Positions 25,555 through 53,520 of a stretch of 64,000 bases of DNA are shown here, piece by piece (the stretch's first letter is position 1; each line of letters starts with the position of its first letter). The stretch spans positions 25,322-89,321 of the forward strand of contig CAMIHP010000002.1 in the NCBI GenBank assembly GCA_946222005.1, written 5' to 3'. The DNA comes from an uncultured Candidatus Saccharibacteria bacterium (GTDB lineage: Bacteria > Patescibacteriota > Saccharimonadia > Saccharimonadales > Saccharimonadaceae). Under the pieces are notes generated by a model. The model did no database searches. It saw only the letters and a program-made list of their open reading frames with translations, and was not told where the DNA came from. The translations under genes were made by a program, and so were the position numbers.

Positions 25555-26025
25555 ATGAAGGTAGAAGCAAAGTCAGGTGCACAGCCGCAGCGCCAAGTAT
25601 GTATTGAGAACATCACAAGCTACTTATTTCAGCTCAAGCAGCGCCTGGCACGCGCTCAGCGCCAGACGGATCAGCAGTTTGGTTTGGCGCCTGTTCACTG
25701 GCATGTGCTGGGCCTATTGCATAGTGGGGCAATCGAGACGATGGGTGATGTAGCCGCAAAGCTGTGCGTCTCCAAGGGTGCGGCGACGCAGATTCTTGAC
25801 GTGCTGGTGGCAAAACAGCTCGTCCAGCGCACGCCAGACCAGCATGATCGACGGGTGGTGCGCCTACAGTTGACTGCGCAAAGCCAGCAGATGACCGATC
25901 ACTTCCAGCAGTATATGGCGGAGACGATTGCTGATCTCTTTGCGGTACTGAGCGATGCCGAGCTGGCGCAGCTCGACCAGCTTATTGATAAAGTAGCCCA
26001 GGGCCACCGGGCGGAGCAAACATGA
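25555..26025 (+). CDS. MarR-family transcriptional regulator.
   Basis: Winged-helix region 'VHWHVLGLLHSGAIETMGDVAAKLCVSKGAATQILDVLVAKQLVQRTPDQHDRRVVRLQLT'. Confidence 0.75.
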   Translation: MKVEAKSGAQPQRQVCIENITSYLFQLKQRLARAQRQTDQQFGLAPVHWHVLGLLHSGAIETMGDVAAKLCVSKGAATQILDVLVAKQLVQRTPDQHDRRVVRLQLTAQSQQMTDHFQQYMAETIADLFAVLSDAELAQLDQLIDKVAQGHRAEQT

Positions 26026-27803: not shown

Positions 27804-29824
27804 GCCAGCAATCGTCTACACAGCCGCGCTCATCAGGAGTGCGCCGCGGCCCAATGGGTGGGCCAGTCGCTGGTGGTGGTACGGAGAGGGCTAAGGACTT
27901 TCGCGGGACGGTGCGTACGCTACTGCGGTATCTGCGCGCCTTTCGTTGGCAACTGGTGCTGGTGATTGGTTTGACGATCATCAGCACACTGTTTGCGATC
28001 GTTAGCCCCAAGCTGCTCGGCAACGCGACTAACCAAATCGTCGATGACTACACGCGCCTGCGTACCTACGACGCTATCCACGAGAAGCTTCCCGTCGGCG
28101 CAGCGATCCCCGCGGGTATGACGGGTGAGCAATTTATGGCATCGCCCCAGGGCAAGCAGCTGGCGCAGGCGTTACCTGCCTCGGCTCGCGAAGCCGCCAA
28201 GACGCTCGATCTTGGTACGCGTCCCACCTTCCATTACGATGCGATCTTGCAGATTGTCCTCTGGCTCGTGGGGCTCTATGTGATCAGTGCGCTGTTTCGC
28301 TATGGACAGGCCTGGCTGATGACGAATATTACCCAGAAGCTGACGTACCAGCTGCGCCGCGATATCTCAAAGGCGATCAATCGCTTGCCGCTGCGCTACT
28401 TCGACACGCAAACGCATGGCGACGTTCTCAGCCGTATTACCAACGATGTCGATACGGTGAGCCAAACGCTTAACCAAAGCCTGTCGCAAATGATGAGTGC
28501 GGTGGTGATGCTAGTGGGGATCCTCGCGATGATGCTGTCGATTAGTTGGCTGCTGACTGTGGTGGCGCTCTTGGTTGTGCCGCTGTCGATGGGGTTGATC
28601 GTTGTGATTACCAAGCGCTCACAGACGCAGTTTATCCGCCAGCAAGATGAGCTAGGCGAGCTCAATGGCCATATTGAGGAGATGTATGCTGGCCACCAGG
28701 TGATGCGCGCCTTTCGTGGGCAGGAGCGGTCGCTGAAGACCTTTCGGCAGATTAACCAGCGGCTCTTCTCGAGCGCGTGGCAGTCGCAGTTTCTCTCTGG
28801 CTTGATGTACCCAGTGATGAATGTGGTGGGAAATATTGGCTATGTTGGTGTGGCGGTGCTCGGTGGCTGGCTGGCAATTGAGGGGCGGATTAAGATTGGC
28901 GATATTCAAGCCTTCATCCAGTATATGCAGCAGTTCAATCAGCCAATTGCCCAAACGGCGAATATTGCCAATGTGCTGCAATCGACGGCAGCCGCGGCCG
29001 AGCGAGTCTTTGAGTTTCTCAAAGAGCCGGCCGAAGCACCCGACCCTGTGCCCGCTACCACGCTGCCAGTGGTGCGCGGTGAAGTGGAGTTTCGCGATGT
29101 TGTCTTTGGCTATAATGCAAAGACGCCGGTTATTAAGCACCTCTCAGCTCATATCCGCCCCGGCCAGCGGGTGGCGATTGTTGGACCAACGGGTGCGGGT
29201 AAGACGACGCTGGTTAATCTGTTGATGCGATTTTATGATATTGACAGTGGTCAGATCCTGATCGATGGCGTGGATATTGCCCAGATGACGCGCAGCAGTG
29301 TCCGGCAGCTCTTTGGCATGGTGTTGCAAGATACGTGGCTTTTCCATGGGACGATCCGCGACAACCTGCGCTATGGTAATCCTGAGGCAAGCGAGACCGA
29401 ACTGCTGGCGGTGGCACGTGAGGCGCATGTTGACCATTTTGTCCGGTCGTTGCCGGGCGGTTACGACATGGTGCTCGACGAAGCGGCGACTAATATTTCG
29501 CAAGGGGAAAAGCAGTTGCTAACGATTGCTCGCGCCATGCTGGCCAAGACGCCGATGCTTATCTTAGATGAAGCGACCAGCTCGGTCGATACCCGCACTG
29601 AGGTGCTCATCCAACAGGCGATGGATAGGCTGATGCAGCACAAGACAAGCTTTGTTATTGCGCACCGCCTCAGCACGATCCGCGACGCCGATCTTATCCT
29701 TGTGGTAAAGGATGGCAACATCATCGAGCAGGACACACACGACGAGCTGCTCGCTCAAAGTGGTTTTTATGCGGAGCTGTATCGGAGTCAGTTTGCGGAA
29801 GACGTCGATAAACCGACAAAGTAA
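27800..29824 (+). CDS. ABC exporter, fused permease/ATPase (second half of the heterodimer).
   Basis: 'GPTGAGKTTL', 'ISQGEKQLLTIARAM', 'ILDEATSSVD'. 4-bp ATGA overlap with the partner gene. Confidence 0.9.
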   Translation: MSQQSSTQPRSSGVRRGPMGGPVAGGGTERAKDFRGTVRTLLRYLRAFRWQLVLVIGLTIISTLFAIVSPKLLGNATNQIVDDYTRLRTYDAIHEKLPVGAAIPAGMTGEQFMASPQGKQLAQALPASAREAAKTLDLGTRPTFHYDAILQIVLWLVGLYVISALFRYGQAWLMTNITQKLTYQLRRDISKAINRLPLRYFDTQTHGDVLSRITNDVDTVSQTLNQSLSQMMSAVVMLVGILAMMLSISWLLTVVALLVVPLSMGLIVVITKRSQTQFIRQQDELGELNGHIEEMYAGHQVMRAFRGQERSLKTFRQINQRLFSSAWQSQFLSGLMYPVMNVVGNIGYVGVAVLGGWLAIEGRIKIGDIQAFIQYMQQFNQPIAQTANIANVLQSTAAAAERVFEFLKEPAEAPDPVPATTLPVVRGEVEFRDVVFGYNAKTPVIKHLSAHIRPGQRVAIVGPTGAGKTTLVNLLMRFYDIDSGQILIDGVDIAQMTRSSVRQLFGMVLQDTWLFHGTIRDNLRYGNPEASETELLAVAREAHVDHFVRSLPGGYDMVLDEAATNISQGEKQLLTIARAMLAKTPMLILDEATSSVDTRTEVLIQQAMDRLMQHKTSFVIAHRLSTIRDADLILVVKDGNIIEQDTHDELLAQSGFYAELYRSQFAEDVDKPTK

Positions 29825-32012: not shown

Positions 32013-33248
32013 GTGGACGATCCAATTCATATTACATCAGAGATTGGCCGGTTGAAGACAGTGCTCTTGCATCGGCCGGGTGAGGAGCTCGAGCATCTCA
32101 CACCAGAACATTTGCAGCGCCTATTGTTTGACGATATTCCGTATCTCAAGGTTGCGCAGGAGGAGCATGATCGCTTTGCAGAGCTGCTCCGCTCGCGTGG
32201 GGTCGAGGTGTTGTACTTAGATGAACTTGCCGCCGAGGCACTCGCTGACGAAGCAGTGCGGCGGCAATTTGTTGTTGAGATGCTGGTGGCATCGAAGCAA
32301 GACAACCAACGCGCATCGCGGACACTGGCTGAGTATTTGCTGAGCATGGAGCCACGCCAGATGGTGCGCAAGCTGATGGCGGGGGTGCGCAAAGATGAGA
32401 TTAGCCTGCCACCTGAGCAGCAGCAACTCCACACAATGGTGGCGCATGAGCAGTATCCATTCTATCTTGACCCAATGCCGAACCTCTACTTTACGCGCGA
32501 CCCAGCAGCGGCGATTGGCCAAGGTCTGACGATCAACAAGATGCACTGGCCAGCTCGGCGGCGTGAGTCGCTCTTTATGCGCTATATTATCGATTTCCAT
32601 CCGCGCTTTGCTGGCAAGAATGTACCGGTTTGGTATGATCGCAGCCAACCATTCTCGATTGAGGGCGGTGATGAGCTGGTGCTTAATAACCACACGATGG
32701 CCATCGGTATAAGCGAGCGTACCTCACCAGAAGCGATTGAGCTGATGGCGACGAAGCTCTTTGCCGAGTCGAATTTTGACACGGTGATTGCCCTTGAGAT
32801 CCCCAAGAGTCACGCCTTTATGCATCTGGATACCGTCTTTACGATGATTGACCACGACAAATTCACCATCCACCCAGAGATTCGGGGCTTTGAGGGGCGG
32901 ATGAATATCTTCGTCTTGCATAAAGCAGACGGGCAAGCCTACCCAACCATTACCAAAGAACATAATCTTGAGCAGGTGCTCAGCCAAGCCCTTGGCGTGC
33001 CGTCGATTACCTTGATCGAATGCGGTGGCGGTGATGATATCGCTGCAGCACGCGAGCAGTGGAATGACGGTAGTAATACCTTGGCGATTGCTCCTGGGGT
33101 GGTGGTCACCTACGACCGCAACTACGTTACCAACCAAAAACTGCGTGAGGCAGGTGTCGAAGTGCTGGAGATTACCGGCTCAGAGCTTGGCCGGGGCCGT
33201 GGCGGGCCACGCTGCATGAGTATGCCATTAATACGAGAGGATGTGTAA
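32013..33248 (+). CDS. arcA: Arginine deiminase.
   Basis: 411 aa. N-terminal '[22 protein letters not shown]'. C-terminal catalytic Cys 'GGPRCMSMP'. Confidence 0.9.
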
Positions 33249-42475: not shown

Positions 42476-42639
42476 CTGACTGGTTGATGGATGCTGAGTT
42501 GGTTGCGACAAAAGTACTTATACGCGTCTAATTTTAGAGTAGCGCATTAACATGCGTCAAACACATGTAATTCTCCAGAAGATAGCAGATGAATGTTTTT
42601 TACAGCAGGTGTATAACACCAGTTTTATACAATAATGCA

Positions 42640-43875
42640 TCATTGATATGAGCGTAAAACTACCTTGAGGGTGTGTTTCTTACCAACACGCAAAATGTCA
42701 TCGTTAGCAAGTGGTGTATCTTCACTGGAAATTTTGGAGTCATTGATCTTCACGGCATTTTGCTTAATGAGCCGTCTGGCCTCGCCGCGACTTTTTGTGA
42801 TGCCCAGTCGAACAATGATATCGATAATTGACTCATGGGCATCCACCTGAACGATGTCAATATCCTTGGCAAGATTCTTCTGACTCACCTCAGAGACCCA
42901 TTGCTGCTCAGCATCAACGGCGGCGCTCGCTCCGTGGTACATTGACACTATCTCTCGAGCAAGATCCTTTTTGATATCGCGTGGGTTTTCTCCGTCGTTG
43001 AGCCGACTTTTAATTACAGCAATCTCACTCATAGACAGGCGCGTACAATCCACAAAACACTGGTAAATACCCGCATCCGCCAGCTGCATGATTTTAAAGA
43101 ACATATCTTTGGCATTCAGATCGAGACCCACACCGGTGCCAAGGCTTTTGCTCATTAATTTTTCGCCGGTTTCTGGGTTTTCGAGCAGTGTGGTTGTCAT
43201 GACAAACTTTTCTTTTTGCTTGTAGCGCTTGAGTAATGTACGGCCAGCCAGCATATTGAATGTTTGGTCGGTGCCACCAATCTCTACATCAACATCCATT
43301 GCCACGGAATCGTAGCCCTGCATCAGCGGATAGAAGAACTCATGGACGAAGAGTGGCTTCTCGGCAGCGACTCGCTTTTTGAACGCATCGCGCTCTAGCA
43401 TCTGCTGCACGGTAAAGTTGGAGGCAAGCTCCACAGAATCTTCAAATGTTAGCTTGGAGAGCCACTCCGAATTAAACTGGAATTCTATCGGGTTGTCGAT
43501 ATCGTTAAAGTCTAGAATCTTGCCAATTTGTGCCTTAAATGTCTGCAGGTTCTCCAGCACTTGTTCACGTGTTAGCTGCACGCGCATCGAAGTCTTATCG
43601 CTCGGATCACCGATCATGGCGGTAAAGTCGCCAATTAGCACAATAATCCGGTGGCCAAGAGCGTGGAACCGTTCGAGTATCAGATAATTTGTTGAGTGCC
43701 CAAGATGAACATAGTTCGCAGTTGGGTCAATACCAAGATAGAATGTGAGGCGGCGGCCACTTTGTAGCTCCTTTTTGAGGCTATCTTTGCTCGGAAGAAT
43801 TTCGGCAACTGAGCGAGATAGCGCTTCATCGATCAAGTGTTCGTCGGTAATAACGTGGTGCGCTTGAGTATTCAT
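42640..43875 (-). CDS. tyrS: Tyrosine--tRNA ligase.
   Basis: HIGH motif 'HLGH', 'KLMSKS' KMSKS motif, and a C-terminal S4-like domain. Start chosen at 'MNTQAHH'. Confidence 0.9.
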   Translation of the reverse strand: MNTQAHHVITDEHLIDEALSRSVAEILPSKDSLKKELQSGRRLTFYLGIDPTANYVHLGHSTNYLILERFHALGHRIIVLIGDFTAMIGDPSDKTSMRVQLTREQVLENLQTFKAQIGKILDFNDIDNPIEFQFNSEWLSKLTFEDSVELASNFTVQQMLERDAFKKRVAAEKPLFVHEFFYPLMQGYDSVAMDVDVEIGGTDQTFNMLAGRTLLKRYKQKEKFVMTTTLLENPETGEKLMSKSLGTGVGLDLNAKDMFFKIMQLADAGIYQCFVDCTRLSMSEIAVIKSRLNDGENPRDIKKDLAREIVSMYHGASAAVDAEQQWVSEVSQKNLAKDIDIVQVDAHESIIDIIVRLGITKSRGEARRLIKQNAVKINDSKISSEDTPLANDDILRVGKKHTLKVVLRSYQ

Positions 43876-44098
43876 GTATAGTATTTTACTACATACGAGA
43901 AGAGATAAAAAACTGAACATGCCTTGAGATCACTTGTTATGTGCCGCTGGAGCCCTATGATTTACGGTGTATCATAATGTGAAAGGGAACTGTGAGTGTG
44001 CAAATGTCTTGTTTATACATGGATGTATGACATCGCTTGTACTACTTATGCTACGGTTGATGGTAGTGCTAGGTCTGAAGATACACTACAATAATAAT

Positions 44099-44638
44099 AT
44101 GAACCAAGAATGGAACGTTATAAGTCAAAAGAAGTTGGTCGACTCGTCGTGGTACAAGCTCAATATTGAAACCGTCAGGCTCCCGTCAGGCAAAGTCCTC
44201 GATGATTATTACGTGCGAGAGGGTATGAACGCCGTTTTGATCGTTCCACGCACTCATGAAGGCAAATTTTTACTGGTGCGTCAGTACAAACACGGAGCGC
44301 AGCAAAGTGTTATAGAATTTCCTGCGGGTAAGATTGATGCGGGTGAATCTGCTTTAATTGCTGCAAAAAGGGAATTATATGAAGAGACTGGAGGCACCTC
44401 CAGTCTTTTTGTAGAGGGACCTACATTTTTTGAGGACCCTACAAATAGCCGTGTCAAGATAGCGATCGTCTTTGCTGATAATGTCACTATAAAGCATAGG
44501 CAACATCTTGACGATAATGAGGATATTGAAGTAATACAGCTAACAACTGACGAGCTACGAACTATGCTTATGAACAATGAGCTATCTGTGGCAGCATCCG
44601 TAGCAGCAGGTTGGATAGCACTAGAGAGGAGATGGTAA
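44099..44638 (+). CDS. NUDIX hydrolase (ADP-ribose pyrophosphatase-like), low GC.
   Basis: Nudix box 'GKIDAGESALIAAKRELYEETG'. The longest ORF starts at 43967, but its first 44 aa look non-coding. Confidence 0.65.
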   Translation: MNQEWNVISQKKLVDSSWYKLNIETVRLPSGKVLDDYYVREGMNAVLIVPRTHEGKFLLVRQYKHGAQQSVIEFPAGKIDAGESALIAAKRELYEETGGTSSLFVEGPTFFEDPTNSRVKIAIVFADNVTIKHRQHLDDNEDIEVIQLTTDELRTMLMNNELSVAASVAAGWIALERRW

Positions 44639-44848
44639 CATGAATACATACGAGTCTGGGACAATAAACCAGGTATTGAAAAAAGCAAACTGATGATTGA
44701 GGTGATTGATAAGGAATGAGGAGTAGGACGGAGACTGTTTATCGATATGGTATCTAGACAGATATAACTCATAAAAGGGAAAATCAGAAGTTCTATATTC
44801 GTGCTAGAATAGTCAGAGAGTAGGAAGTAGGGGGTGAGGGTAGAAAAT

Positions 44849-45610
44849 ATGCCCAAGAAGAAACTAAATAATAATACCAAACTAAGCTTCCGTACCATTC
44901 TTCTCCGTAGTATTCTCTATGTAATTGGTGTACCAACAGTCATCATGCTTCTCCTTGTTGGCGGATTCTATCTCAAATTATGTGCTGAAGCTAGCCAAGC
45001 TCAAGCAGCAATGAAAACATATCTACATAGTAAATATGGTGAAGAATTTATCGTCGAACGACCAGAAAAGAATGGAAGCGGGCTCGGTGTAGAAGGGTGG
45101 TTTGAAGCAACAGCCTACCCGAAGAATCACACAGACATCCGCTTCATTGTTATGCTGTCATCCTCAGGGAAGCATGATGGCTATGCTGGTGCTGTATGGT
45201 CAAAAGAAGAGACTGATCGACTCAAACCTATTATTCAGCGTATCTTTAGTAAAGATGTAGTGTATAGTGTAACCATCCAATCGTCTATGACGCTACAAAC
45301 GAAAGATATACAAGTTGACGGTGTAATACCACGTTTTACACAAGCGGCGGCACAATATAAGCAGCAAATTCCATATAATATCACTATTCAAAAAACACAC
45401 CAAACACGAGAATATCAGGAAAAAATGCGCATCGTCGATAATCTTAAAGAGCTTGCAAAGGATCTGCCAGATACCGTTGACACTACTATTCGCTACCAAG
45501 CACAAACATCTGGAGGTAAGAAGTTTGATTTAGATATAACAATCATGGCATTAAAATCCACACCACAAGAAACATTAGTCACAATGTTTCAAGAAAAGGA
45601 GAGTCTATAA
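44849..45610 (+). CDS. Paralog 1 of a four-member family of type-II membrane-anchored proteins (conserved N-terminal TM anchor, divergent extracytoplasmic C-domain). Candidate immunity or variable surface protein.
   Basis: 'MPKKKLNNNTKLSFRTILLRSILYVIGVPTVIMLLLVGGFYLK' is shared almost identically with paralog 3, and clearly with paralogs 2 and 4. ATG preceded by a G-rich RBS. Confidence 0.6.
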   Translation: MPKKKLNNNTKLSFRTILLRSILYVIGVPTVIMLLLVGGFYLKLCAEASQAQAAMKTYLHSKYGEEFIVERPEKNGSGLGVEGWFEATAYPKNHTDIRFIVMLSSSGKHDGYAGAVWSKEETDRLKPIIQRIFSKDVVYSVTIQSSMTLQTKDIQVDGVIPRFTQAAAQYKQQIPYNITIQKTHQTREYQEKMRIVDNLKELAKDLPDTVDTTIRYQAQTSGGKKFDLDITIMALKSTPQETLVTMFQEKESL

Positions 45611-45612
45611 AT

Positions 45613-45684
45613 ATGAGCATAACAATAGAGCAATATCTTGCACTAAGTGCACTTGCCTATAAAATACAACCTTTAAAAGAATAA
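45613..45684 (+). pseudogene. Degenerate 5' fragment of the lipase/RTX gene (24 codons) trailing paralog 1.
   Basis: Translation 'MSITIEQYLALSALAYKIQPLKE*' against the lipase N-terminus 'MVKDEQFLTLSSLAYEPFSD'. The core 'EQYLALSALAY' matches 'EQFLTLSSLAY'. Confidence 0.55.
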
Positions 45685-45710
45685 CTAGAAAGTTCCATAA
45701 TTACACTACT

Positions 45711-45734
45711 AATAGTCGCGTAGCTAAAATAGGG
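45711..45734 (+). promoter_or_regulatory. Conserved upstream element of the paralog array (copy before paralog 2), containing a -10-like TAAAAT.
   Basis: 'aatagtcgcgtagctaaaataggg' here matches 'acaatagtcgcgtagccaaaaaatagggg' at 46751-46779, with a weaker 'agaatagtc' at about 44807. Confidence 0.4.
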
Positions 45735-45752
45735 ATCTTGAGAGCAGAAAAT

Positions 45753-46505
45753 ATGTCCAATAAAAAACCAAACGATAACAGCAAACTAAGCTTCCGCACC
45801 ATCCTCTTCCGTAGTATTCTCTACGTGATTATCATTCCGACAGTTATCATGTTGGTAATATTTGGTATATTCTACACAAAATCTACTATTGATGATCATA
45901 TTGCTCAATCACATATGCGGTCATACCTCAAACGTAAGTATGGCCAAGAATTTATAGTAGAGAATTATCGAATCGAGGGGGCTGGCCTTGGAGTAGATGG
46001 TGTTGCCAAGGCTGAGGCGTATGCTAAAAGTGACCACACGATTCGATTTATGGTGAAGGGGTTTCCGGGGGACAGTCCATACAGTAATAACTATTGGGAT
46101 GGATACCCCGATATGACATGGGCAAAACACCTCAAAAAGGATATTGATCCTATGATAAAAAACGTATTTGGTGCCGACACATCGCTCGCATCAATAGAAG
46201 TTTACAGTATACCTGCAGTGAACCAAAGGATAGGAAAAGAAATACCATTGTATCGTGATGCCTTCCAGCGATTTGGTAAAGATATACATGTCGCTGTACG
46301 TATAAAGAGTAGGGTTGTCCATAATGATGTAGCCGCACAGATATACCAGATAATCGTCAAGCTGCGAGAGTTCGGTGTGTCGCTATCTATTAATTATGAG
46401 AACCCCATGGTATATGTTGCATTAGTCGAAGAAACAAGTATACGCGGTATACATTCACCACAGGATGTAAGGAAATATATAGAAATGAAGGGGGAAAAGC
46501 TATGA
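45753..46505 (+). CDS. Paralog 2 of the membrane-anchored family.
   Basis: 'MSNKKPNDNSKLSFRTILFRSILYVIIIPTVIMLVIFGIFYTK'. The C-domain is divergent but alignable in patches with the other three paralogs. Confidence 0.6.
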   Translation: MSNKKPNDNSKLSFRTILFRSILYVIIIPTVIMLVIFGIFYTKSTIDDHIAQSHMRSYLKRKYGQEFIVENYRIEGAGLGVDGVAKAEAYAKSDHTIRFMVKGFPGDSPYSNNYWDGYPDMTWAKHLKKDIDPMIKNVFGADTSLASIEVYSIPAVNQRIGKEIPLYRDAFQRFGKDIHVAVRIKSRVVHNDVAAQIYQIIVKLREFGVSLSINYENPMVYVALVEETSIRGIHSPQDVRKYIEMKGEKL

Positions 46506-46543
46506 AAATAGAACAATGCTTGGTGTTAAGCTCATTATCTTAA
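46502..46543 (+). pseudogene. Second degenerate 5' fragment of the lipase gene (14 codons) trailing paralog 2.
   Basis: 'MKIEQCLVLSSLS*' against the lipase 'MVKDEQFLTLSSLAY'. Confidence 0.5.
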
Positions 46544-46750
46544 TAGTACATCCCTAAGTAGTTTTGCCTCTAGCAGCGAGAAGCCACCATTGAGGCGCTC
46601 ATAAAACAGGGAAAAATTGACAATTATCGCCATAGCGATGGATCTATTTCTCTCGAATGCAAACCCCTCTCCTCTCTCATATCTTGACACCTCATCAACG
46701 CTACGACTTTCAGAGTAAGAAGAATAACTCAATAGTTCTGCATTTGTGCT

Positions 46751-46779
46751 ACAATAGTCGCGTAGCCAAAAAATAGGGG
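46751..46779 (+). promoter_or_regulatory. Conserved upstream element of the paralog array (copy before paralog 3).
   Basis: A duplicate of the 45711-45734 element, including the TAGCCAAAAAAT -10-like box. Confidence 0.4.
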
Positions 46780-46797
46780 TTGTTGGGAGAAGAGAAT

Positions 46798-47538
46798 ATG
46801 TCCAAGAAGGAACTAAATAATAACACCAAACTAAGCTTCCGTACCATTCTTCTCCGTGGTATTCTCTATGTCATCATTATTCCAACGGCTGTTATGATTC
46901 TCCTTATTGGTGGATTCTATCTCAAGGCCGATATTGAGGCGAATCAAGCTCAAGCAACAATGAAAACTTATTTACAAAACAAATATAATGAGGAATTCAT
47001 CGTTGAGAAACCAGAGCGGAAGAGCAGTGGCCTCGGCGTAGAGGGAGTACTAGCTGCCAATGCTTACCCTATACGGGATCCTCATATACGATTTTCTGTA
47101 AACACCTCATCGAATGGCAATCAAGATAACTATCCAGGTGTAATATGGTCCCGCTCTCAGAATGATAAGTTAATAAAGGATCATATCATAAATAACTCAT
47201 GGGCGCAGACCGACATCACTGTCAGTCTTGCAGACAATACAGCACAGTCGCTGAGCGGTACACCTAAAACATACGAAGAAGCGATAGCGTCTTATGGAAA
47301 AGATATTCACTACATAATAAGTGTTAATCGTAATACAAATCAATTGGCTGTCGATAACCGGGATCGGTACTATCTCATAAGCCTTATTAGATATATCAAT
47401 CAGCAAAAAGTTGGCTACCGTATTATACATTACAGCATACATGATACGAAGATGGACGCAGACATAGTGTGCAATATACAGGTAGAAGGTACGCGTCTAT
47501 TAGATGAAAAACAAGCCAATGAATGCTTTAGAAAATAA
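46798..47538 (+). CDS. Paralog 3 of the membrane-anchored family.
   Basis: The first roughly 130 nt are near-identical to paralog 1 at the DNA level. The C-terminal domain is divergent. Confidence 0.6.
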   Translation: MSKKELNNNTKLSFRTILLRGILYVIIIPTAVMILLIGGFYLKADIEANQAQATMKTYLQNKYNEEFIVEKPERKSSGLGVEGVLAANAYPIRDPHIRFSVNTSSNGNQDNYPGVIWSRSQNDKLIKDHIINNSWAQTDITVSLADNTAQSLSGTPKTYEEAIASYGKDIHYIISVNRNTNQLAVDNRDRYYLISLIRYINQQKVGYRIIHYSIHDTKMDADIVCNIQVEGTRLLDEKQANECFRK

Positions 47539-47556
47539 GGGGTGGGGACAGAAAAC

Positions 47557-48318
47557 ATGCACGAGAAAGAACCAGACGAGAATAATAGGCTAAGCTTTCG
47601 CACCATCCTCTTTCGTGGTATCCTCCGCGTTATCATTATTCCGACATGCGTCATACTTCTATTAACTGGTGCATTAATCGGTATATTTCATATTAAGTAT
47701 CTTATAGAGGCTCATCAAGCTCAGGCTGAAATGCGCGCCTACCTAGAGAAAAAATATCACCAGCACTTCATTATCAAGAACTATCGAATTGAAGGAGGAG
47801 GATTCGCAAGAAGAGGCGGCAAAGTTGCAGATGCACATAGAGAGGGTAGTTCTTATACCTTTCGTGTTTTAGAGAAAGATCACCGGCTCTATCGTGATAA
47901 CTACCTCTCAGCACTTTACAATGAGCAGGAAGAAAAAGATCTTACCAAGATGGTTAAAAAATTGTCTATACCTGCAGTAAAATATATGCCAGATATTACA
48001 ATTGCTCCTGATGTAGCTGATGGGATACAGGGTACGCCAGCTTTTGCTGAGATGTTGCAAAAGTATGGAGACCATATTATATATGAAGTATCTATTGTTG
48101 TAGTAGGGGATCAGGTAAAAGAAGAAGATGTCCAAAACGTAAGAAAACTTATGGAGTATGCCCAATCAAAAAACCCGAGAAGTTATGCTGTGAGATATGT
48201 TGTAAATAGCAGAACTGAAGATGCACGATATATTTGTCAGGAGTATGGAGGTATAAGCGAGAAAACGGCGCAAGAAACTTCTAAGGATTGCTTTAAAAAG
48301 AGTAAGGGAAGGATATAG
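47557..48318 (+). CDS. Paralog 4 of the membrane-anchored family. Directly followed by the lipase/RTX gene.
   Basis: 'MHEKEPDENNRLSFRTILFRGILRVIIIPTCVILLLTG'. Stop at 48318 and the lipase ATG at 48321. Confidence 0.6.
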   Translation: MHEKEPDENNRLSFRTILFRGILRVIIIPTCVILLLTGALIGIFHIKYLIEAHQAQAEMRAYLEKKYHQHFIIKNYRIEGGGFARRGGKVADAHREGSSYTFRVLEKDHRLYRDNYLSALYNEQEEKDLTKMVKKLSIPAVKYMPDITIAPDVADGIQGTPAFAEMLQKYGDHIIYEVSIVVVGDQVKEEDVQNVRKLMEYAQSKNPRSYAVRYVVNSRTEDARYICQEYGGISEKTAQETSKDCFKKSKGRI

Positions 48319-48320
48319 TA

Positions 48321-50909
48321 ATGGTAAAAGACGAACAGTTTTTAACTTTGAGCTCATTGGCATATGAGCCGTTTTCTGATAATGATATCAACAAATCTTT
48401 AAAAGAAATTATTAAGAAAGTACCTAGAAACAACCGTCTTGAACTTAAACCTCTCTCCTCCCTCGCATCCTGGCACCTCATTAACGCCACAACCACTTCA
48501 TCTGGTATGTCGGCTATTGCTGTGCAAGATCCAGCCACCAAGGACATTGTCTTTGCCTATCGCGGAACGGATATTGATAAGAATATCTGGGAGGCGATGA
48601 AAGATATTGAGTCGGATATTGCGATTGCATCGAGTGGAAATGTTTTTGTGCAGGATGGGCTGAACCAATTCCACGATGCTTACACCTTCTATACCGAGAC
48701 GATCAAGAAAGTTGGTGGCGGTGCTCATGTAGGCACCAAGAGCTTCACTGGCCATTCACTCGGTGGTGGACTAGCGCAGTATATGGCGTATAAAACTGGT
48801 GGTGCATATAAGACGGTCACCTTCGACGCGGTAGGGATTGGCCAAGTGCTGAAGAATGTCAACCCGCGGGACTATGATACCTCAGTAACGGACTACACCA
48901 ATGAGCACGATATCATTGGTATGTATGGTGTGCAGCTGGGCCGCACAGTGTACATTAAGGATATGAACAGTGATGAGCTGCGTAAGAAGGACCGTGACTA
49001 TGTGACAATACTGCAGTATGCGCAGGGTGCCATTGCTGTGGCGGCACGCAATGGCGAGCATGCCTCAGCAATGGGGTGGATGGCAGCTGCAAGCATAGCA
49101 TCGCTCGGGTATGCAGTGAATCGCACTAGCCAAGAGCTAGCTTTCGATGCACATCGTCCAAGTAGTTTATTAACTGATGATGGTACGCTAGCAGCCACTG
49201 TACCGCAGGGAGACTCCATCACGAATACATTGGCTGGCGCACTTCGTACAACACTGGAAGTATATACCGGTATTGCCAATGGTGTTCATTTCATCGTTGT
49301 TGAGATTCCAAGTGCTACAGCTGAAGAGCTTGTGCGAATAACGCTCTCTGTCGCTGAAAGTGGTAAGAAGATCATAGTCGATGTAGCACAGGTGATTCGC
49401 GATCAGGTGAATATCCTTACCTCTAGTGTATATGAAACAAGCCGGATTATGGGTGAGCAAGCCGATGCCTTTGCTCGTGTGCTGATGACACAACTTGCTG
49501 GGGCTACGCAATGGACAACTTCGCTCCGCCTCGACATTGCCGTGCTGAGTGCACTGAGTGGTGCGGCCAGAATAACGCGCGATACACTTGCTGCTATAGT
49601 AGAGACACCTGATGCGATGACACGTTGGCTGCAGATGGTCTTTGGTGCAAGTGCACATGTCGTTGGTACAGCAGCAGACGATTCTATTGATGGTTATGAT
49701 CATATCCCAGACTATGGCGTGACGAAGCGTGCGGTCTATGTAGAGGGCCGAGAAGGGAATGATTACGTAACAGGAACGAATTCTGATGATACATTGATGG
49801 GTGATGCAGGGAATGACACTATCATGGGCAAAGGTGGTAATGATATGATTTTTGGCGGTGATGGTGACGATTCTCTATATGGTGATGGTGGTAGTGATAC
49901 AATTTTTGGCGGTGCTGGCGATGACAACCTTAATGGTTCAGAAGGTGATTCTAATAAGCTCTATGGTGGCGCAGGTGATGATGGAATAAATGGTTCCGGG
50001 TTGATTGTTGGCGGCGCAGGTGATGACCGGATCGACTCTCAATTTGGGAACGATACATATATCTATAACCGCGGTGATGGTAATGACACGATTAGCGACT
50101 TTGGCGGCATTGACACTGTACGGTTTGGTGCGGGTATCGTGCCAAGCGGTGTAACGGCACGCTATGAGAGCCGCCCGTATGGCGCGCCAGGCAATGATTA
50201 TGATCTTGTCTTAGATATAAAAGGCTCTGGTAGTATTCGCATCAAAGACTATTATGGTTCGAGTGACTGGGCAGGACGGAACCGTCCCGTACCGGGTCAT
50301 CGTGTCGAGCGCTTTGTTTTTGCAGATGGCACCGTGTGGGATGAGCAGGCAATCCGCACCATGACGCATAACTTACAAGGAACAGCTGACGATGATTCTA
50401 TTGACGCCTTTGATGATGATGGTATCACGGTACATAGTGGAGCTGGTAACGACACGGTGCGTGGCGCGAGGCAAGACGCAAATGTGCTCTATGGGGACGA
50501 CGGTGATGACAGCCTCATTGGTGGTGAGAAAAATGATATGCTGACTGGTGGGCAGGGTAATGATGTGTTGTATGGTGCAGGTGGCAACGATATCTATACC
50601 TTCAAGCGAGGGGATGGTGTTGACACGATAAGTGATGATGACGGCGTTGACACACTGCAGTTTGGCGAAGGCATTAATCCGCGTGATGTGACTGTTCGAC
50701 GTATCCATCTTTCATCATATGAAAGTCTCGAGCTTGCTATCACGGGTACAGGTGATAAAATCATTATCCAAGGATATTTTGGCTCGTACTCATACGACGG
50801 GCTGCATGAGAGCACAAGCCAGCAGATCGAAAAAGTGGTTTTTGCTGATGGTACGGTATGGACACCGGAGATAATCGCGCAAATGCTTGTAGAGCACACG
50901 AGTGAATAG
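48321..50909 (+). CDS. Large secreted-effector-like protein. N-terminal lipase class 3 / Mbeg1-like alpha/beta-hydrolase domain, then RTX nonapeptide Ca2+-binding repeats and two haemolysin-type Ca-binding-related (HCBP_related-like) domains.
   Basis: 'VFAYRGTDIDKNIWEAMKDI' and the nucleophile elbow 'FTGHSLGGGLAQYMA'. Repeated 'GNDTIMGKGGNDMIFGGDGDDSLYGDGGSDTIFGGAGDDNLNG' repeats. Two copies of '...RGDG(N/V)DTISD..G(I/V)DT(V/L)(R/Q)FG.GI.P..VT.R.......VFADGTVW'. No N-terminal signal peptide. Confidence 0.8.
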   Translation: MVKDEQFLTLSSLAYEPFSDNDINKSLKEIIKKVPRNNRLELKPLSSLASWHLINATTTSSGMSAIAVQDPATKDIVFAYRGTDIDKNIWEAMKDIESDIAIASSGNVFVQDGLNQFHDAYTFYTETIKKVGGGAHVGTKSFTGHSLGGGLAQYMAYKTGGAYKTVTFDAVGIGQVLKNVNPRDYDTSVTDYTNEHDIIGMYGVQLGRTVYIKDMNSDELRKKDRDYVTILQYAQGAIAVAARNGEHASAMGWMAAASIASLGYAVNRTSQELAFDAHRPSSLLTDDGTLAATVPQGDSITNTLAGALRTTLEVYTGIANGVHFIVVEIPSATAEELVRITLSVAESGKKIIVDVAQVIRDQVNILTSSVYETSRIMGEQADAFARVLMTQLAGATQWTTSLRLDIAVLSALSGAARITRDTLAAIVETPDAMTRWLQMVFGASAHVVGTAADDSIDGYDHIPDYGVTKRAVYVEGREGNDYVTGTNSDDTLMGDAGNDTIMGKGGNDMIFGGDGDDSLYGDGGSDTIFGGAGDDNLNGSEGDSNKLYGGAGDDGINGSGLIVGGAGDDRIDSQFGNDTYIYNRGDGNDTISDFGGIDTVRFGAGIVPSGVTARYESRPYGAPGNDYDLVLDIKGSGSIRIKDYYGSSDWAGRNRPVPGHRVERFVFADGTVWDEQAIRTMTHNLQGTADDDSIDAFDDDGITVHSGAGNDTVRGARQDANVLYGDDGDDSLIGGEKNDMLTGGQGNDVLYGAGGNDIYTFKRGDGVDTISDDDGVDTLQFGEGINPRDVTVRRIHLSSYESLELAITGTGDKIIIQGYFGSYSYDGLHESTSQQIEKVVFADGTVWTPEIIAQMLVEHTSE

Positions 50910-51150
50910 CGTATAACCTCTGTCTTGGCTCCATCTCATCTGTTGTATTAGCTTTATTGTCTTTATATTGGTAGGCTAGATGGTTTGGGCTACTTTCTCA
51001 ATATTGGTGCTTAGGCAGAATACTAGCTTTCATAACTTCCTAGAGGAAGAATAAGACAGCGAGAAATAATAAATGGGCTGATATGAGCACGTCGCCTCTG
51101 CAGGAGTCTCTTTAAGCTAGCTTTCATCTCTCTCCTGCACAATACCACAC

Positions 51151-51879
51151 ATGAAAACAGCAACCATGACCCAATCAGCCGGAGCGGTAGAGGCACCCGC
51201 TGCGCCAGTGCTGCGTGCGCTTAATCCGCGAATGCTCAGCATCGATATTGTGCTGCCAGTGCTTAATGAGGTGCATGTTATTGCGCGCTCGGTGAGCACG
51301 TTGCACGCGTATTTATCACAGCATGTGCCGCATCGCTGGCGCATCATTATTGCCGACAATGGCAGCACGGACGGCACAGCGGAAGCGGCGCACCAATTGG
51401 CGGTACGTTACCCCGAGGTGTGGCTCATCCAGCTTAGCGAGAAAGGCCGCGGCCGGGCTCTCAAGCAAGCGTGGCTACAGAGCTCGGCTGATATTCTGGC
51501 CTACATGGATATCGACCTCTCTACCAATTTAGACAGCTTCGTGTCAATGATCACCCCGCTGATTATGGGTGAGGCAGCTGTGGCGACGGGCTCGCGCCTA
51601 ATGAAGCAGTCGCGCACAAGCCGCGGCTTCAAGCGTGACACTATCTCGCGTTGCTACAACTGGATTATTCGCCGGACGATGAAGACAAAATTTGTCGATG
51701 CCCAGTGCGGTTTCAAGACGATTCGGCGCGATGCGGCACGCAAGATTCTGCCTCGCATCAAGGATACTGGCTGGTTTTTTGATACCGAGCTGCTCGTCAA
51801 GGCAGAGTACGCTGGCTACACCATCCACGAGGAGCCAGTTTTTGGGCTGGCTCTCTATTATTTCTTTTATCTCAACTAA
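51151..51879 (+). CDS. Family 2 glycosyltransferase (dolichyl-/polyprenyl-phosphate sugar transferase-like).
   Basis: 'IDIVLPVLNE', 'IIADNGSTDGT', 'MDIDLS' DxD-type motifs. Confidence 0.8.
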   Translation: MKTATMTQSAGAVEAPAAPVLRALNPRMLSIDIVLPVLNEVHVIARSVSTLHAYLSQHVPHRWRIIIADNGSTDGTAEAAHQLAVRYPEVWLIQLSEKGRGRALKQAWLQSSADILAYMDIDLSTNLDSFVSMITPLIMGEAAVATGSRLMKQSRTSRGFKRDTISRCYNWIIRRTMKTKFVDAQCGFKTIRRDAARKILPRIKDTGWFFDTELLVKAEYAGYTIHEEPVFGLALYYFFYLN

Positions 51880-52472: not shown

Positions 52473-52856
52473 TTGTCTATACAAACCCTTGAGGAATGGC
52501 GTAATGAAGTAAAAAATCGAATTTTTAAGACTGCCCTAAGCCACGTCGTGCATACCACAGATACAACCATAAACAAGGAGTATACGACAATGGCACAGCA
52601 ACCAACTCTCACCACAGACGAAGCTCTCGTTTTGCAGCAGATCAACGAGCATGGCGAAGATGATGTGATTGGCCTAGAGCAGAGCCTGCGCATGAGCCGC
52701 CCAAAGCTTATGGCGCAACTCACTCACCTCAAGAACAAAGGGCTTATTACGGTCAAGATGACGACTGGTGATTGGCAGTGTGGTGAGCTATCTCCTCGCG
52801 GAGCACACCCTGCGGCCGATCCGCGCCAACATGCACGCTCAGACGCAGTTCGTTAG
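52473..52856 (+). CDS. Small winged-helix-like hypothetical protein. Its 3' end overlaps the 5' end of the truncated histidine kinase in another frame.
   Basis: 'DEALVLQQINEHGEDDVIGLEQSLRMSRPKLMAQLTHLKNKGLITVK' has a wHTH-like pattern. The true start may be the internal Met (MAQQPT). Confidence 0.35.
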   Translation: MSIQTLEEWRNEVKNRIFKTALSHVVHTTDTTINKEYTTMAQQPTLTTDEALVLQQINEHGEDDVIGLEQSLRMSRPKLMAQLTHLKNKGLITVKMTTGDWQCGELSPRGAHPAADPRQHARSDAVR

Positions 52857-53520
52857 TGATGCCAGTCATGAGCTGCGCACGCCGCTGACCGCGCTGCGTA
52901 CTGCGAACGAAGTAGCGCTGCGCAACCCCAAGCTCACCTTGGCCGAGGCCCGCACCGTCATAGAAGCGAATGTGACCGATGCGACGCGGCTGCAAACGCT
53001 AGCCAATACAATGCTTGGCTTGCTTCGGCACGACCGCTCGGTGGTGCAGCTGCAGCCAGTTGCTTTACAAACCGTGGTGAGTGAAGCGATGAACTTGGTG
53101 GTGGCACCTGCCCAAGCGAAGTCGATTGCCATTGATGACACCACGCCACCTTTGATGGTGCGGGCTCATCAGCAGCGTCTTGTTCAGCTCCTTACCATTT
53201 TGCTCGACAATGCCATCAAGTACAGCCCGGAGCATACCACCATCACCATCACCGCTGGGAGTACCAATCGCTGGGCTAGGGTGCAGATCATTGACCGAGG
53301 CATCGGGATGGACGCCGCCACGCAGCGTCAGATATTCCAGCGCTTCTACCGAGCCGACCAAGCTCGCACTGGTGGCCTAGGCCAGGGCTATGGCCTTGGG
53401 CTTGCGATTGCCCAGCAGATCATCACCGAGCATGGCGGCAAAATTACTGTCGACAGTACGCCTGGTAGTGGCACGACCTTTACGGTGAGCTTGCGCCTTG
53501 TGGGCAGGCAGAGTACGTAG
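52768..53520 (+). CDS. Histidine kinase catalytic core (partial TM2/linker + HisKA + HATPase_c) lacking N-terminal sensor/TM domains. Either a 5'-truncated gene or a pseudogene.
   Basis: H-box 'SHELRTPLTAL'. N-box 'LLDNAIKYS'. G-boxes 'DRGIGM' and 'GLGLAIAQ'. The N-terminus 'IGSVVSYLLAEHTLRPIRANMH' is the tail of a TM2/linker. A GTG start sits immediately after an in-frame TGA. No response regulator nearby. Confidence 0.7.
   Translation: MIGSVVSYLLAEHTLRPIRANMHAQTQFVSDASHELRTPLTALRTANEVALRNPKLTLAEARTVIEANVTDATRLQTLANTMLGLLRHDRSVVQLQPVALQTVVSEAMNLVVAPAQAKSIAIDDTTPPLMVRAHQQRLVQLLTILLDNAIKYSPEHTTITITAGSTNRWARVQIIDRGIGMDAATQRQIFQRFYRADQARTGGLGQGYGLGLAIAQQIITEHGGKITVDSTPGSGTTFTVSLRLVGRQST

What the first reader, a model, noticed from the sequence alone, without database searches (positions are those of the whole stretch)
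43930..51100. AT-rich roughly 7 kb island with a lipase-RTX effector and a tandem array of four membrane-anchored paralogs: a candidate novel toxin/immunity-like or phase-diversified surface system
The window switches from about 57% to about 40% GC between tyrS (ending 43920) and the GT2 gene (51151). In between lie a Nudix gene, four co-directional paralogs and an 862-aa lipase-class-3/RTX protein. The spacing is P3-P4 3 bp and P4-lipase 2 bp.

Tandem arrays of membrane-anchored immunity genes next to a secreted phospholipase are the hallmark of Tle/Tli-type antibacterial modules. Here there is no T6SS context, and the effector carries RTX / haemolysin-type Ca-binding domains instead. An equally open alternative is a cassette system for diversifying a surface protein.

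Both readings are undescribed for this kind of genome. Either one would bear on how the organism interacts with neighbouring or host cells.
Basis: partly seen in the sequence, partly recalled or inferred. Interest (0 to 1): 0.85.

Follow-up and report, generated by a model that had tools for sequence, protein, structure and literature searches.

The report
Saccharibacterial lipase toxin with immunity-gene array
A tiny parasitic mouth bacterium (Saccharibacteria) carries a secreted-type lipase preceded by four related membrane-anchored genes, and comparison with about 30 relatives suggests a lipase toxin with an array of protective "immunity" genes, a kind of system known in staphylococci but not reported in these bacteria.

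Summary
There are four co-directional paralogs (29-45% identical; cytoplasmic tail, one TM helix, about 200-aa ectodomain) and an 862-aa class-3-lipase/RTX protein, in a low-GC block. That block starts at about 42,500 and includes tyrS.

The organism is a Candidatus Saccharibacteria (TM7) MAG lineage. In 31 genomes of this clade the locus always lies between tyrS-Nudix and GT2-Nudix. Its content is hypervariable: 2-5 paralogs of five types, in 19 different orders.

The lipase is intact in 10 genomes, split in 7, and deleted at one identical microhomology junction in 14. All 121 paralog ORFs are intact and under purifying selection (dN/dS 0.16-0.30), with or without the lipase.

Each paralog carries its own lipase 5' end. 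Two such stubs lie in the window's spacers. The same "paralog + lipase stub" arrays occur in distant lineages, where the lipase is followed by a HlyB/HlyD-type exporter; none is found in this window.

Best reading: an N-terminal ("reverse") lipase toxin with an upstream raft of cognate and orphan immunity genes. It is analogous to S. aureus TslA/TilA and TslM/TilM but RTX/T1SS-linked, with a new immunity family. Function is inferred, not shown. The phase-variable cassette reading is not supported.

The parts
42640..43920 (-). tyrS (tyrosine-tRNA ligase). Conserved left flank of the locus, already inside the low-GC block.
   Evidence: TIGR00234 E=1e-104. GC 0.46. Present left of the array in all clade loci that reach it.
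44099..44638 (+). Nudix hydrolase (NudE-like). Conserved neighbour with no evident link to the lipase module.
   Evidence: PF00293 E=1e-14. dN/dS 0.14 across 19 genomes.
44849..45610 (+). Paralog P1: N-in single-pass membrane protein with an ectodomain of about 200 aa. Candidate orphan immunity protein.
   Evidence: 17 intact orthologues; dN/dS 0.21.
45613..45684 (+). P1-type lipase 5' stub (MSITIEQYLALSALAYKIQPLKE*). Remnant of a displaced lipase gene.
   Evidence: It matches the lipase N-terminal motif EQYLALSSLAY seen.
45753..46505 (+). Paralog P2. Candidate orphan immunity protein.
   Evidence: 23 intact orthologues; dN/dS 0.22.
46502..46708 (+). Degenerate P2-type lipase 5' stub, with stops and a frameshift. 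It runs into the conserved core sequence (..LECKPLSSLIS*HLINATT).
   Evidence: 87% DNA identity over 225 nt to the 5' end of the full-length P2-linked lipase of L017. Translation.
46798..47538 (+). Paralog P3. Candidate orphan immunity protein. It has the two conserved ectodomain cysteines.
   Evidence: 28 intact orthologues; dN/dS 0.21.
47557..48318 (+). Paralog P4. Candidate cognate immunity protein of the resident lipase, and orthologue of the single copy in other Saccharibacteria lineages.
48321..48455 (+). Lipase codons 1-45: the polymorphic N-terminal segment, whose type depends on the paralog directly upstream (here P4-type).
   Evidence: N-termini sorted by upstream paralog; mean 67% and minimum 35% identity, against 98% in the core. 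Confidently folded as three short helices.
48456..49220 (+). Class-3 lipase catalytic domain. Nucleophile Ser146 (GHSLGG) at 48756-48758; Asp197 and His279 are inferred triad members.
   Evidence: dN/dS 0.08 among the 10 intact copies.
49221..49700 (+). Middle region of the lipase. Poorly modelled. The homologous region of relatives is tagged PF26745 'SPM' in precomputed hits.
49701..50909 (+). Two RTX nonapeptide blocks, each followed by an HCBP_related domain. Presumed T1SS trafficking part.
   Evidence: dN/dS 0.18.
48764..48774 (.). Upstream endpoint of the recurrent 2.2-kb lipase deletion allele. Microhomology GGTGGnnGnCTAG, with its partner at 50969-50979.
   Evidence: Identical junction in L011, L016, L019, L030, L032 and L035.
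50969..50979 (.). Downstream endpoint of the same deletion allele, 60 nt after the lipase stop codon.

Best explanation
The island is a lipase toxin/effector module of a Saccharibacterium, with an upstream array ('raft') of immunity genes.

The 862-aa protein has a 'reverse' layout. A class-3 lipase or phospholipase domain sits at the N-terminus. An RTX/HCBP calcium-binding part, of the kind exported by a HlyB/HlyD ABC system, sits at the C-terminus.

P4 is translationally coupled to the lipase (2-nt gap). It is the cognate immunity protein: an N-in, single-pass membrane protein. Its disulfide-containing alpha+beta ectodomain sits on the outer face of the producer's membrane and blocks the lipase there.

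P1-P3 are orphan immunity genes. Each still carries the 5' stub of the lipase gene it once accompanied. They are kept because they protect against lipase variants made by neighbouring Saccharibacteria.

New 'immunity + lipase N-terminus' modules enter by recombination in the conserved lipase core and in the conserved 5' ends of the paralogs. Older modules are pushed upstream. This mirrors the orphan CT/immunity arrays of CDI and Rhs systems.

Shown: gene architecture, homology, variability, selection, stubs, and exporter linkage in sister lineages.

Inferred: lipolytic activity, toxicity, neutralisation, export, and the target. The target could be a rival epibiont, or the actinobacterial host membrane as a lipid source.
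For: 1. Organism. All 30 genome loci carrying a P4 relative are Candidatus Saccharibacteria MAGs.

2. Adjacency. The family member lies directly upstream of a PF26363/class-3 lipase-RTX gene, or of a lipase 5' stub, in the window clade and in L002, L003/9, L007/8/10, L040, L041-43, L044-46, L047 and L049. Gaps range from -4 to +7 nt.

3. Retention without the toxin. Across 31 clade genomes the lipase is intact in 10, split in 7 and deleted in 14. All 121 paralog ORFs are intact. Their dN/dS of 0.16-0.30 is the same in lipase-deleted and lipase-intact genomes. In contrast, about half of the lipase remnants carry further stops, frameshifts or GHSLGG mutations. In L007/8/10 the RTX part, hlyB and most of hlyD are deleted, yet the paralog is kept.

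4. Raft dynamics. There are five paralog types and 19 different orders in 31 genomes. The lipase N-terminus type follows the adjacent paralog. Stubs occur in the window and in distant lineages.

5. Where intact, the lipase is functional-looking. The core has dN/dS 0.08, a class-3 fold, and GHSLGG with invariant D197.

6. Export. A full-length HlyB homologue (E=1e-221, including the C39-like domain) plus a HlyD-like protein follows the lipase in L003/9, L040, L002 and L044.

8. Experimentally validated analogues behave the same way. For TslA/TilA and TslM/TilM these features are reported: multiple non-identical immunity copies, a recombination hotspot, toxins often absent or frameshifted while immunity is retained, TM-anchored extracellular immunity, and a polymorphic toxin N-terminus (PMC10730906, PMC13560087).
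Against: - No experiment: lipase activity, toxicity and neutralisation are all inferred.
- No HlyB/HlyD exporter in the 64-kb window or in the 10-kb flanks of any clade locus. Export in this clade is therefore unproven, and the frequent lipase loss could mean the system is decaying here.
- The lipase catalytic core is about 98% identical in all clade genomes. If immunity specificity exists, it would have to reside in the first 45-60 residues or be directed at lipases of other lineages. The linkage of N-terminus type to paralog type is physically forced by adjacency, so it is not independent evidence of functional pairing.
- The paralogs have no sequence or fold match to any proven lipase immunity family (DUF576, DUF1433, Tli). 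The best fold match is an uncharacterised DUF5037 protein.
- Loci were retrieved through P4, so universality of P4 and of the island is subject to ascertainment bias.
- All genomes are MAGs. 'Split' lipases may include assembly errors.
Confidence: 0.6

Rival explanations
1. Lipid-harvesting machine. The lipase is a host-directed nutrient-acquisition enzyme that releases fatty acids or lysolipids from the actinobacterial host membrane. The membrane-anchored paralogs are lipid-binding or lipid-handling receptors that capture the products for the lipid-auxotrophic epibiont. They are not inhibitors.
For: Patescibacteria lack lipid synthesis, and their lipid uptake and breakdown mechanisms are unidentified. 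Phospholipases have been proposed to breach the host envelope (PMC11665869). The paralog-lipase link is strict across lineages. The ectodomain is anchored at the membrane surface. Paralogs could remain useful without a cis lipase if neighbours supply lipase as a public good.
Confidence: 0.14
2. Lipase helper. The paralogs are membrane-anchored steric chaperones or activators (Lif-like foldase), or docking or secretion adaptors needed to fold, activate or retain the RTX lipase at the cell surface.
For: A TM-anchored extracytoplasmic protein encoded next to, and translationally coupled with, a lipase recalls the Lif foldases of Pseudomonas and Burkholderia (established knowledge). One T6SS lipase needs its immunity protein for activation; this is my recollection of the E. 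cloacae Tle/Tli work, and 7ubz appears only as a weak hit.
Against: The paralogs stay intact and constrained in 14 genomes whose lipase is deleted, and in L007/8/10. A dedicated helper should decay together with its client. There is no match to Lipase_chap/PF03280 or to any other Pfam family. The fold is alpha+beta, not the all-helical Lif embrace. Five diverged copies for one nearly invariant lipase core make little sense for a foldase.
Confidence: 0.1
3. Variable surface proteins unrelated to the lipase (adhesins, phage or host-recognition receptors). Their tandem diversity reflects immune or phage pressure, and the lipase neighbour is incidental.
For: Surface-exposed topology, tandem paralogy, low GC and strong between-genome variation in copy number and order.
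Against: Adjacency to a lipase or to its stub in 9 of 9 lineages down to about 20% identity. Purifying, not diversifying, selection within each type. No silent cassettes, inverted repeats or recombinase.
Confidence: 0.05

Closest known systems
S. aureus TslM/TilM (Tsl2/Til2) T7SSb 'reverse' lipase toxin with DUF1433 immunity raft (PMC13560087)
   Same: The lipase domain is N-terminal (a class-3-like fold compared with Yarrowia Lip2 in both cases) and the trafficking domain is C-terminal. Immunity is an uncleaved N-terminal TM anchor plus an extracellular globular domain. There are several non-identical copies whose number varies between strains. Orphan immunity is retained where the toxin is absent or frameshifted.
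   Different: The trafficking domain here is RTX/HCBP, with a HlyB/HlyD exporter in sister lineages. It is not LXG-like with a WXG100 partner and T7SS. The ectodomain is about 200 aa, two-lobed and distantly DUF5037-like, not the roughly 125-aa DUF1433. The immunity genes are co-directional and coupled, not divergent. The host is a Saccharibacterium, not Bacillota. Lipase 5' stubs accompany each orphan.
S. aureus TslA/TilA (Tsl1/Til1) on the nuSa-alpha island (PMC10730906)
   Same: A variable co-directional array of immunity genes lies upstream, with the adjacent one co-transcribed with the lipase. Most toxin polymorphism is in the N-terminal region. Some loci keep immunity genes without the toxin.
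   Different: TilA proteins are DUF576 lipoproteins. Secretion is by T7SS with two helical partners. Toxin stubs are not described in the sections I read.
T6SS Tle/Tli phospholipase effector-immunity pairs (for example class-3-lipase Tle2/TseL)
   Same: A GxSxG lipase is paired with an extracytoplasmic immunity protein, and immunity paralogs are often tandem. There is a weak profile hit to a T6SS lipase effector, 7ubz_B.
   Different: There is no T6SS, VgrG or PAAR context, and Saccharibacteria have no outer membrane or periplasm. The trafficking part is RTX. The immunity proteins are unrelated.
Orphan toxin-tip/immunity arrays of CDI (cdiA-CT/cdiI) and Rhs systems
   Same: Displaced toxin fragments, each retaining a piece of the conserved junction, sit next to their immunity genes in tandem. 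The arrays are generated by recombination at the conserved-variable boundary.
   Different: The polarity is mirrored: here the variable part is the toxin's N-terminus, and orphans accumulate upstream. The variable segment is only 45-60 residues, not a whole toxin domain.
RTX T1SS substrates, including family I.3 RTX lipases (Serratia LipA, P. fluorescens TliA), with HlyB/HlyD-type exporters
   Same: An enzyme domain lies N-terminal to GGxGxD repeats. A HlyB homologue (E=1e-221) and a HlyD-like protein are adjacent in sister lineages.
   Different: The catalytic domain is class 3, not family I.3; the only NCBIfam PueAB hit lies in the RTX part. The cell type is monoderm-like with no TolC. An immunity raft is present. 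No exporter is present in this window.

Membership tests
Reverse-arrangement lipase toxins with immunity rafts (Tsl1/Til1, Tsl2/Til2 of Bacillota) | N-terminal lipase domain with GxSxG and a Ser-Asp-His triad | tested here: met
   GHSLGG at aa 144-149; S146 and D197 are invariant in the family alignment and H279 is in the consensus. Class-3 lipase profile and fold matches.
Reverse-arrangement lipase toxins with immunity rafts (Tsl1/Til1, Tsl2/Til2 of Bacillota) | C-terminal LXG-like helical domain, a WXG100/Lap partner gene, and T7SSb dependence | tested here: not met
   The C-terminus is RTX + HCBP_related. No small helical partner gene is present. Sister loci carry HlyB/HlyD instead.
Reverse-arrangement lipase toxins with immunity rafts (Tsl1/Til1, Tsl2/Til2 of Bacillota) | Immunity protein of family DUF576 (lipoprotein) or DUF1433 | tested here: not met
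   No Pfam family at E<=0.01 for the four window paralogs, nor consistently for 19 + 44 family members.
Reverse-arrangement lipase toxins with immunity rafts (Tsl1/Til1, Tsl2/Til2 of Bacillota) | Multiple non-identical immunity genes, strain-variable in number, retained where the toxin is lost | tested here: met
   Five types and 19 orders in 31 genomes. 121 of 121 paralogs are intact, against 10 of 31 lipases.
Reverse-arrangement lipase toxins with immunity rafts (Tsl1/Til1, Tsl2/Til2 of Bacillota) | The adjacent gene product neutralises lipase toxicity | not testable with these tools
   Needs expression and rescue experiments, or at least multimer modelling with interface scores.
T6SS Tle/Tli effector-immunity modules | Genetic linkage to T6SS (VgrG, PAAR, Hcp or core genes) | tested here: not met
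   None among the called genes or Pfam hits of the window or of any locus.
RTX proteins exported by type I secretion | Glycine- and aspartate-rich nonapeptide repeats in the C-terminal part | tested here: met
   PF00353 E=6e-22 (4 stretches). NF033943 RTX_toxin E=1e-47 over aa 475-687.
RTX proteins exported by type I secretion | Dedicated HlyB-type ABC transporter (with C39-like domain) and HlyD-type adaptor encoded nearby | tested here: not met
   Absent from the 64-kb window and the clade flanks. Present directly next to the orthologous lipase in L003/9, L040, L002 and L044-46. The rest of the genome could not be searched.
Family I.3 RTX lipases (LipA/TliA type) | Catalytic domain homologous to family I.3 lipases | tested here: not met
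   The catalytic domain matches class-3 lipases. The polyurethane-esterase model hits only aa 703-781, within the RTX part.
Lipase-specific foldases (Lif, PF03280) | Lipase_chap homology and an all-helical periplasmic domain; function depends on the client lipase | tested here: not met
   No Pfam hit. The model is alpha+beta. The paralogs persist under constraint without the lipase.
DUF5037 (structure 4gl6, Ruminococcus gnavus) | Shared fold and detectable sequence relationship | tested here: inconclusive
Phase-variable or silent-cassette surface-protein systems | Invertible or recombinase-driven switch, or promoterless partial cassettes feeding one expression site | tested here: not met
   No inverted repeats of 20 nt or more and no recombinase gene. 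All copies are full-length with their own ATG and RBS.

The most novel reading that the evidence does not exclude
Saccharibacteria deploy a horizontally acquired HlyB/HlyD-exported, polymorphic phospholipase against the membranes of their actinobacterial host, of competing epibionts on the same host, or both. This would tie interbacterial warfare to the unsolved problem of how lipid-auxotrophic Patescibacteria obtain membrane lipids. The upstream stub-bearing arrays would reveal a general, mirror-image ('N-terminal') mode of polymorphic-toxin diversification, using a previously unannotated immunity family of more than 600 sequence clusters.
Probability: 0.22. Interest if true: 0.85.

Novelty: new variant of a known kind. 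Interest (0 to 1): 0.64.

Why it matters
Saccharibacteria are obligate epibionts of oral Actinobacteria, and very few of their effector systems are understood. A recent perspective states that lipid uptake and breakdown mechanisms in Patescibacteria are unidentified (PMC11665869).

This locus gives a concrete, widespread candidate: an exported phospholipase with a dedicated self-protection family. Its population genetics are those of a conflict system, with toxin loss, orphan immunity and module shuffling.

It would extend 'reverse' lipase toxins and immunity rafts beyond T7SS and Bacillota to an RTX/T1SS-type route in the Candidate Phyla Radiation. It adds an unannotated protein family (673 clusters at 50% identity). 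It also shows orphan arrays that keep toxin N-terminal stubs, mirroring CDI and Rhs.

It is directly testable in the now genetically tractable Saccharibacteria-host co-cultures.

Tried and rejected
- Pfam, NCBIfam and PDB sequence searches of the paralogs gave nothing usable. The only lead was a weak DUF5037 link.
It was repeated with the P4 group.
- The afdb50 fold library was unavailable.
- Rfam found no RNA family in the window.
- The search for an exporter in the window found only two MDR-type ABC half-transporters (26022-29824). They have no C39-like domain and no HlyD partner, and are 30-33% identical to the L003 HlyB homologue from residue 193 onwards. They were rejected as a dedicated T1SS.
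- The invertible-switch or cassette idea was rejected: there are no inverted repeats.
- The promoter and terminator scan is uninformative: 30 sites against 20 expected.
- The Lif-foldase idea was rejected on retention without the lipase and on fold.
- My first Nudix dN/dS of 1.8 came from a query that started one base out of frame. The corrected value is 0.14.
- Fusion-construct complex modelling was considered and dropped, because the structure tool returns no interface metrics.
- Literature searches for a prior description in Saccharibacteria found none.

Full report
**1. Observation**

- tyrS (-) 42640-43920
- a Nudix gene, 43967-44638 (likely ATG at 44099)
- four co-directional paralogs: 44834-45610, 45738-46505, 46780-47538 and 47542-48318
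- an 862-aa protein, 48321-50909
- a GT2 gene from 51151

The quoted 3-bp and 2-bp gaps are correct for the longest ORFs. Homologue N-termini and G-rich RBS-like motifs put the real starts at 44849, 45753, 46798 and 47557. With these starts the P3-P4 gap is 18 nt and the P4-lipase gap is 2 nt.

The paralogs are 29-45% identical. They share a K/R-rich tail, one TM helix and an ectodomain of about 200 aa.

The large protein has:
- RTX repeats (E=6e-22) and two HCBP_related domains;
- a sub-threshold Lipase_3 hit, which a family profile (E=2e-7 to Thermomyces lipase) and an AF2 model (Yarrowia Lip2 E=9e-7) confirm as class 3;
- GHSLGG at residues 144-149.

GC falls from 0.54-0.60 to 0.40 in the paralogs and 0.48 in the lipase. 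The low-GC block already includes tyrS (0.46) and starts near 42,500.

**2. Organism and family**

A scan of species-representative genomes with the P4 group returned 30 loci. All are Candidatus Saccharibacteria MAGs, and 29 of them are 92-99% identical to P4. The window also carries arcA, groEL and a GH18 gene.

The word-indexed protein search found only 24 clusters. An exhaustive HMM search found 673 representatives at 50% identity (323 at E<=1e-10), nearly all 200-285 aa. None has a Pfam family in the library available here.

**3. The link to the lipase is strict**

In every lineage whose context I could read, a family member lies directly upstream of a PF26363/class-3 lipase-'SPM'-RTX gene, with gaps from -4 to +7 nt. 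These are L002, L003/4/9, L007/8/10, L040, L041-43 and L044-46.

Two solitary, distant members, L047 (next to rplS) and L049, are each followed by a short ORF with the lipase N-terminal motif.

In L003/9, L040, L002 and L044-46 the lipase is adjacent to an ABC transporter and a HlyD/AprE-like adaptor. The ABC transporter is a full-length HlyB homologue, including the C39-like domain (E=1e-221 to 7sgr).

No such exporter occurs in the 64-kb window or in the clade flanks. The ABC pair at 26022-29824 lacks the N-terminal domain and an adaptor.

**4. The locus is a recombination hotspot with toxin loss and paralog retention**

I mapped the window proteins on 31 clade genomes. The island always lies between tyrS-Nudix and GT2-Nudix. 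It holds 2-5 paralogs of five types; the fifth, P5, is absent from the window. They occur in 19 different orders, and many orders are circular permutations or subsets of P5-P1-P2-P3-P4.

The lipase is full-length in 10 genomes, including the window. It is split in 7 and deleted in 14.

The deletion has one and the same junction everywhere. It joins window 48774 to 50969 through the microhomology GGTGGnnGnCTAG, just after the catalytic serine.

About half of the remnants show further decay: stops, frameshifts, or GHSLGG changed to SHSLSG.

In contrast, all 121 paralog ORFs are intact. Their dN/dS is 0.16-0.30, and it is indistinguishable between lipase-deleted and lipase-intact genomes.

A second lineage repeats the pattern. 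L007/8/10 lost the RTX part, hlyB and most of hlyD, but kept the paralog.

Where intact, the lipase core is strongly constrained (dN/dS 0.08; RTX part 0.18).

**5. Modules and stubs**

The first 40-60 residues of the lipase depend on which paralog lies directly upstream; there are P4-, P5-, P2- and P3-types. All types converge at LELKPLSSLASWHLINATT. Beyond that point the proteins are about 98% identical.

Internal paralogs keep the 5' stub of 'their' lipase. In the window:
- the P1-P2 spacer encodes MSITIEQYLALSALAYKIQPLKE* (45613-45684);
- the P2-P3 spacer is a degenerate copy of the P2-type lipase 5' end, 87% identical over 225 nt (46502-46708), running into the conserved junction.

The distant L041-43 array has the same grammar: paralog - 109-aa stub - paralog - 95-aa stub - paralog - full lipase.

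The only repeats in the island are the conserved paralog 5' ends. There are no inverted repeats.

The simplest model is repeated entry of 'paralog + lipase N-terminus' modules by recombination in the conserved lipase core. Older modules are displaced upstream, and later deletions and permutations occur between the conserved segments. This mirrors the orphan CT/immunity arrays of CDI and Rhs.

**6. Interpretation**

The pattern matches what has been shown experimentally for the S. aureus T7SS 'reverse' lipase toxins. TslA is neutralised by DUF576 lipoproteins encoded in a variable upstream array. TslM is neutralised by DUF1433 proteins that have an uncleaved TM anchor and an extracellular domain. 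Both papers describe:
- multiple non-identical immunity copies;
- recombination hotspots;
- toxins that are often absent or frameshifted while immunity genes are retained (PMC10730906, PMC13560087).

I therefore read P4 as the cognate immunity protein and P1-P3 as orphan immunity genes of a class-3 phospholipase toxin or effector whose trafficking part is RTX/T1SS-type. My confidence in this reading is 0.6.

The target is open. It could be rival Saccharibacteria, or the host membrane as a lipid source. A recent perspective states that lipid acquisition in Patescibacteria is unexplained (PMC11665869).

Rival readings:
- A lipid-capture role for the paralogs (0.14). It is weakened by the frequent loss of the lipase and by the lack of a lipid-binding fold.
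- A Lif-like helper (0.10). It is contradicted by retention without the client.
- Unrelated variable surface proteins (0.05). It is contradicted by 9 of 9 adjacency and by purifying selection.

**7. Caveats**

- Nothing functional is shown.
- The exporter is missing from this window.
- The catalytic core is nearly invariant in the clade, so the specificity of five diverged paralogs is unexplained unless it lies in the N-terminal 45-60 residues or concerns lipases of other lineages.
- The linkage of N-terminus type and paralog type follows from adjacency.
- Retrieval through P4 biases towards genomes that have the island.
- All genomes are MAGs.
- The human or oral origin is inferred only from sample labels.

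**8. Novelty**

I found no description of this system in Saccharibacteria.

It is a new variant of a known kind. The logic is the known one: a reverse lipase toxin plus an immunity raft. The new elements are:
- the secretion context (a HlyB/HlyD-type exporter in a CPR bacterium);
- the immunity family;
- the stub-bearing upstream orphan arrays.

Noticed in passing
window 51151-51879 (join near 51832-51840), compared with L006:12108-14918: The window's GT2 gene (242 aa) is the 5' remnant of a 936-aa GT2-PMT (protein mannosyltransferase-like) fusion that is intact in many relatives. A 2.1-kb deletion removes the PMT part. About ten clade genomes share the short form, and four lack GT2 altogether.
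   Followed up: partly
window ~52765-52775, and ORF 52768-53520: Relative to L006, a 1.2-kb deletion removes a response regulator and the first 85 residues of the adjacent histidine kinase. The window's 250-aa HisKA/HATPase ORF is therefore a 5'-truncated remnant. Together with the GT2-PMT deletion, this suggests ongoing decay around the island.
   Followed up: partly
window 42500-44640 (tyrS, Nudix): The housekeeping gene tyrS and the Nudix gene share the island's low GC (0.46 and 0.44). They also have lower synonymous divergence between clade genomes (dS 0.10-0.12) than the GC-rich flanking genes (dS 0.23-0.29). This suggests that the whole low-GC block is exchanged between species, or was acquired together.
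   Followed up: partly
L003:16419-19888; also L040:9903-12118, L044:739-4400, L002:9063-9443: Saccharibacteria-type contigs carry a HlyB homologue that aligns over all 700 residues with E. coli HlyB (E=1e-221), plus a HlyD-like adaptor. This looks like a proteobacterial-type RTX exporter in a cell without an outer membrane. L040's copy is 97% identical to L003's, although their lipases and paralogs are only 34-41% identical to the window's. This hints at transfer of the exporter independent of its cargo.
   Followed up: partly
L002:777-4211; L003:3220-6989; L007:832-4601: In other lineages a response regulator, a methyltransferase-like protein and a 7TM histidine kinase (HisKA_7TM) lie just upstream of the paralog-lipase module. 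A CLIPPER-domain protein lies between them in L003 and L007. They may regulate the module.
   Followed up: no
window 32013-33248: An arginine deiminase gene (PF02274, E=1e-144) is present. From my own knowledge, the arginine deiminase system is a trait of mammal-associated Saccharibacteria, which fits the human-sample labels of the related contigs.
   Followed up: no
L025, L027, L034 (Nudix gene next to tyrS): The Nudix gene upstream of the array is interrupted or truncated in 3 of 22 clade genomes, although it is otherwise under purifying selection (dN/dS 0.14). This may be real decay or MAG assembly error.
   Followed up: partly
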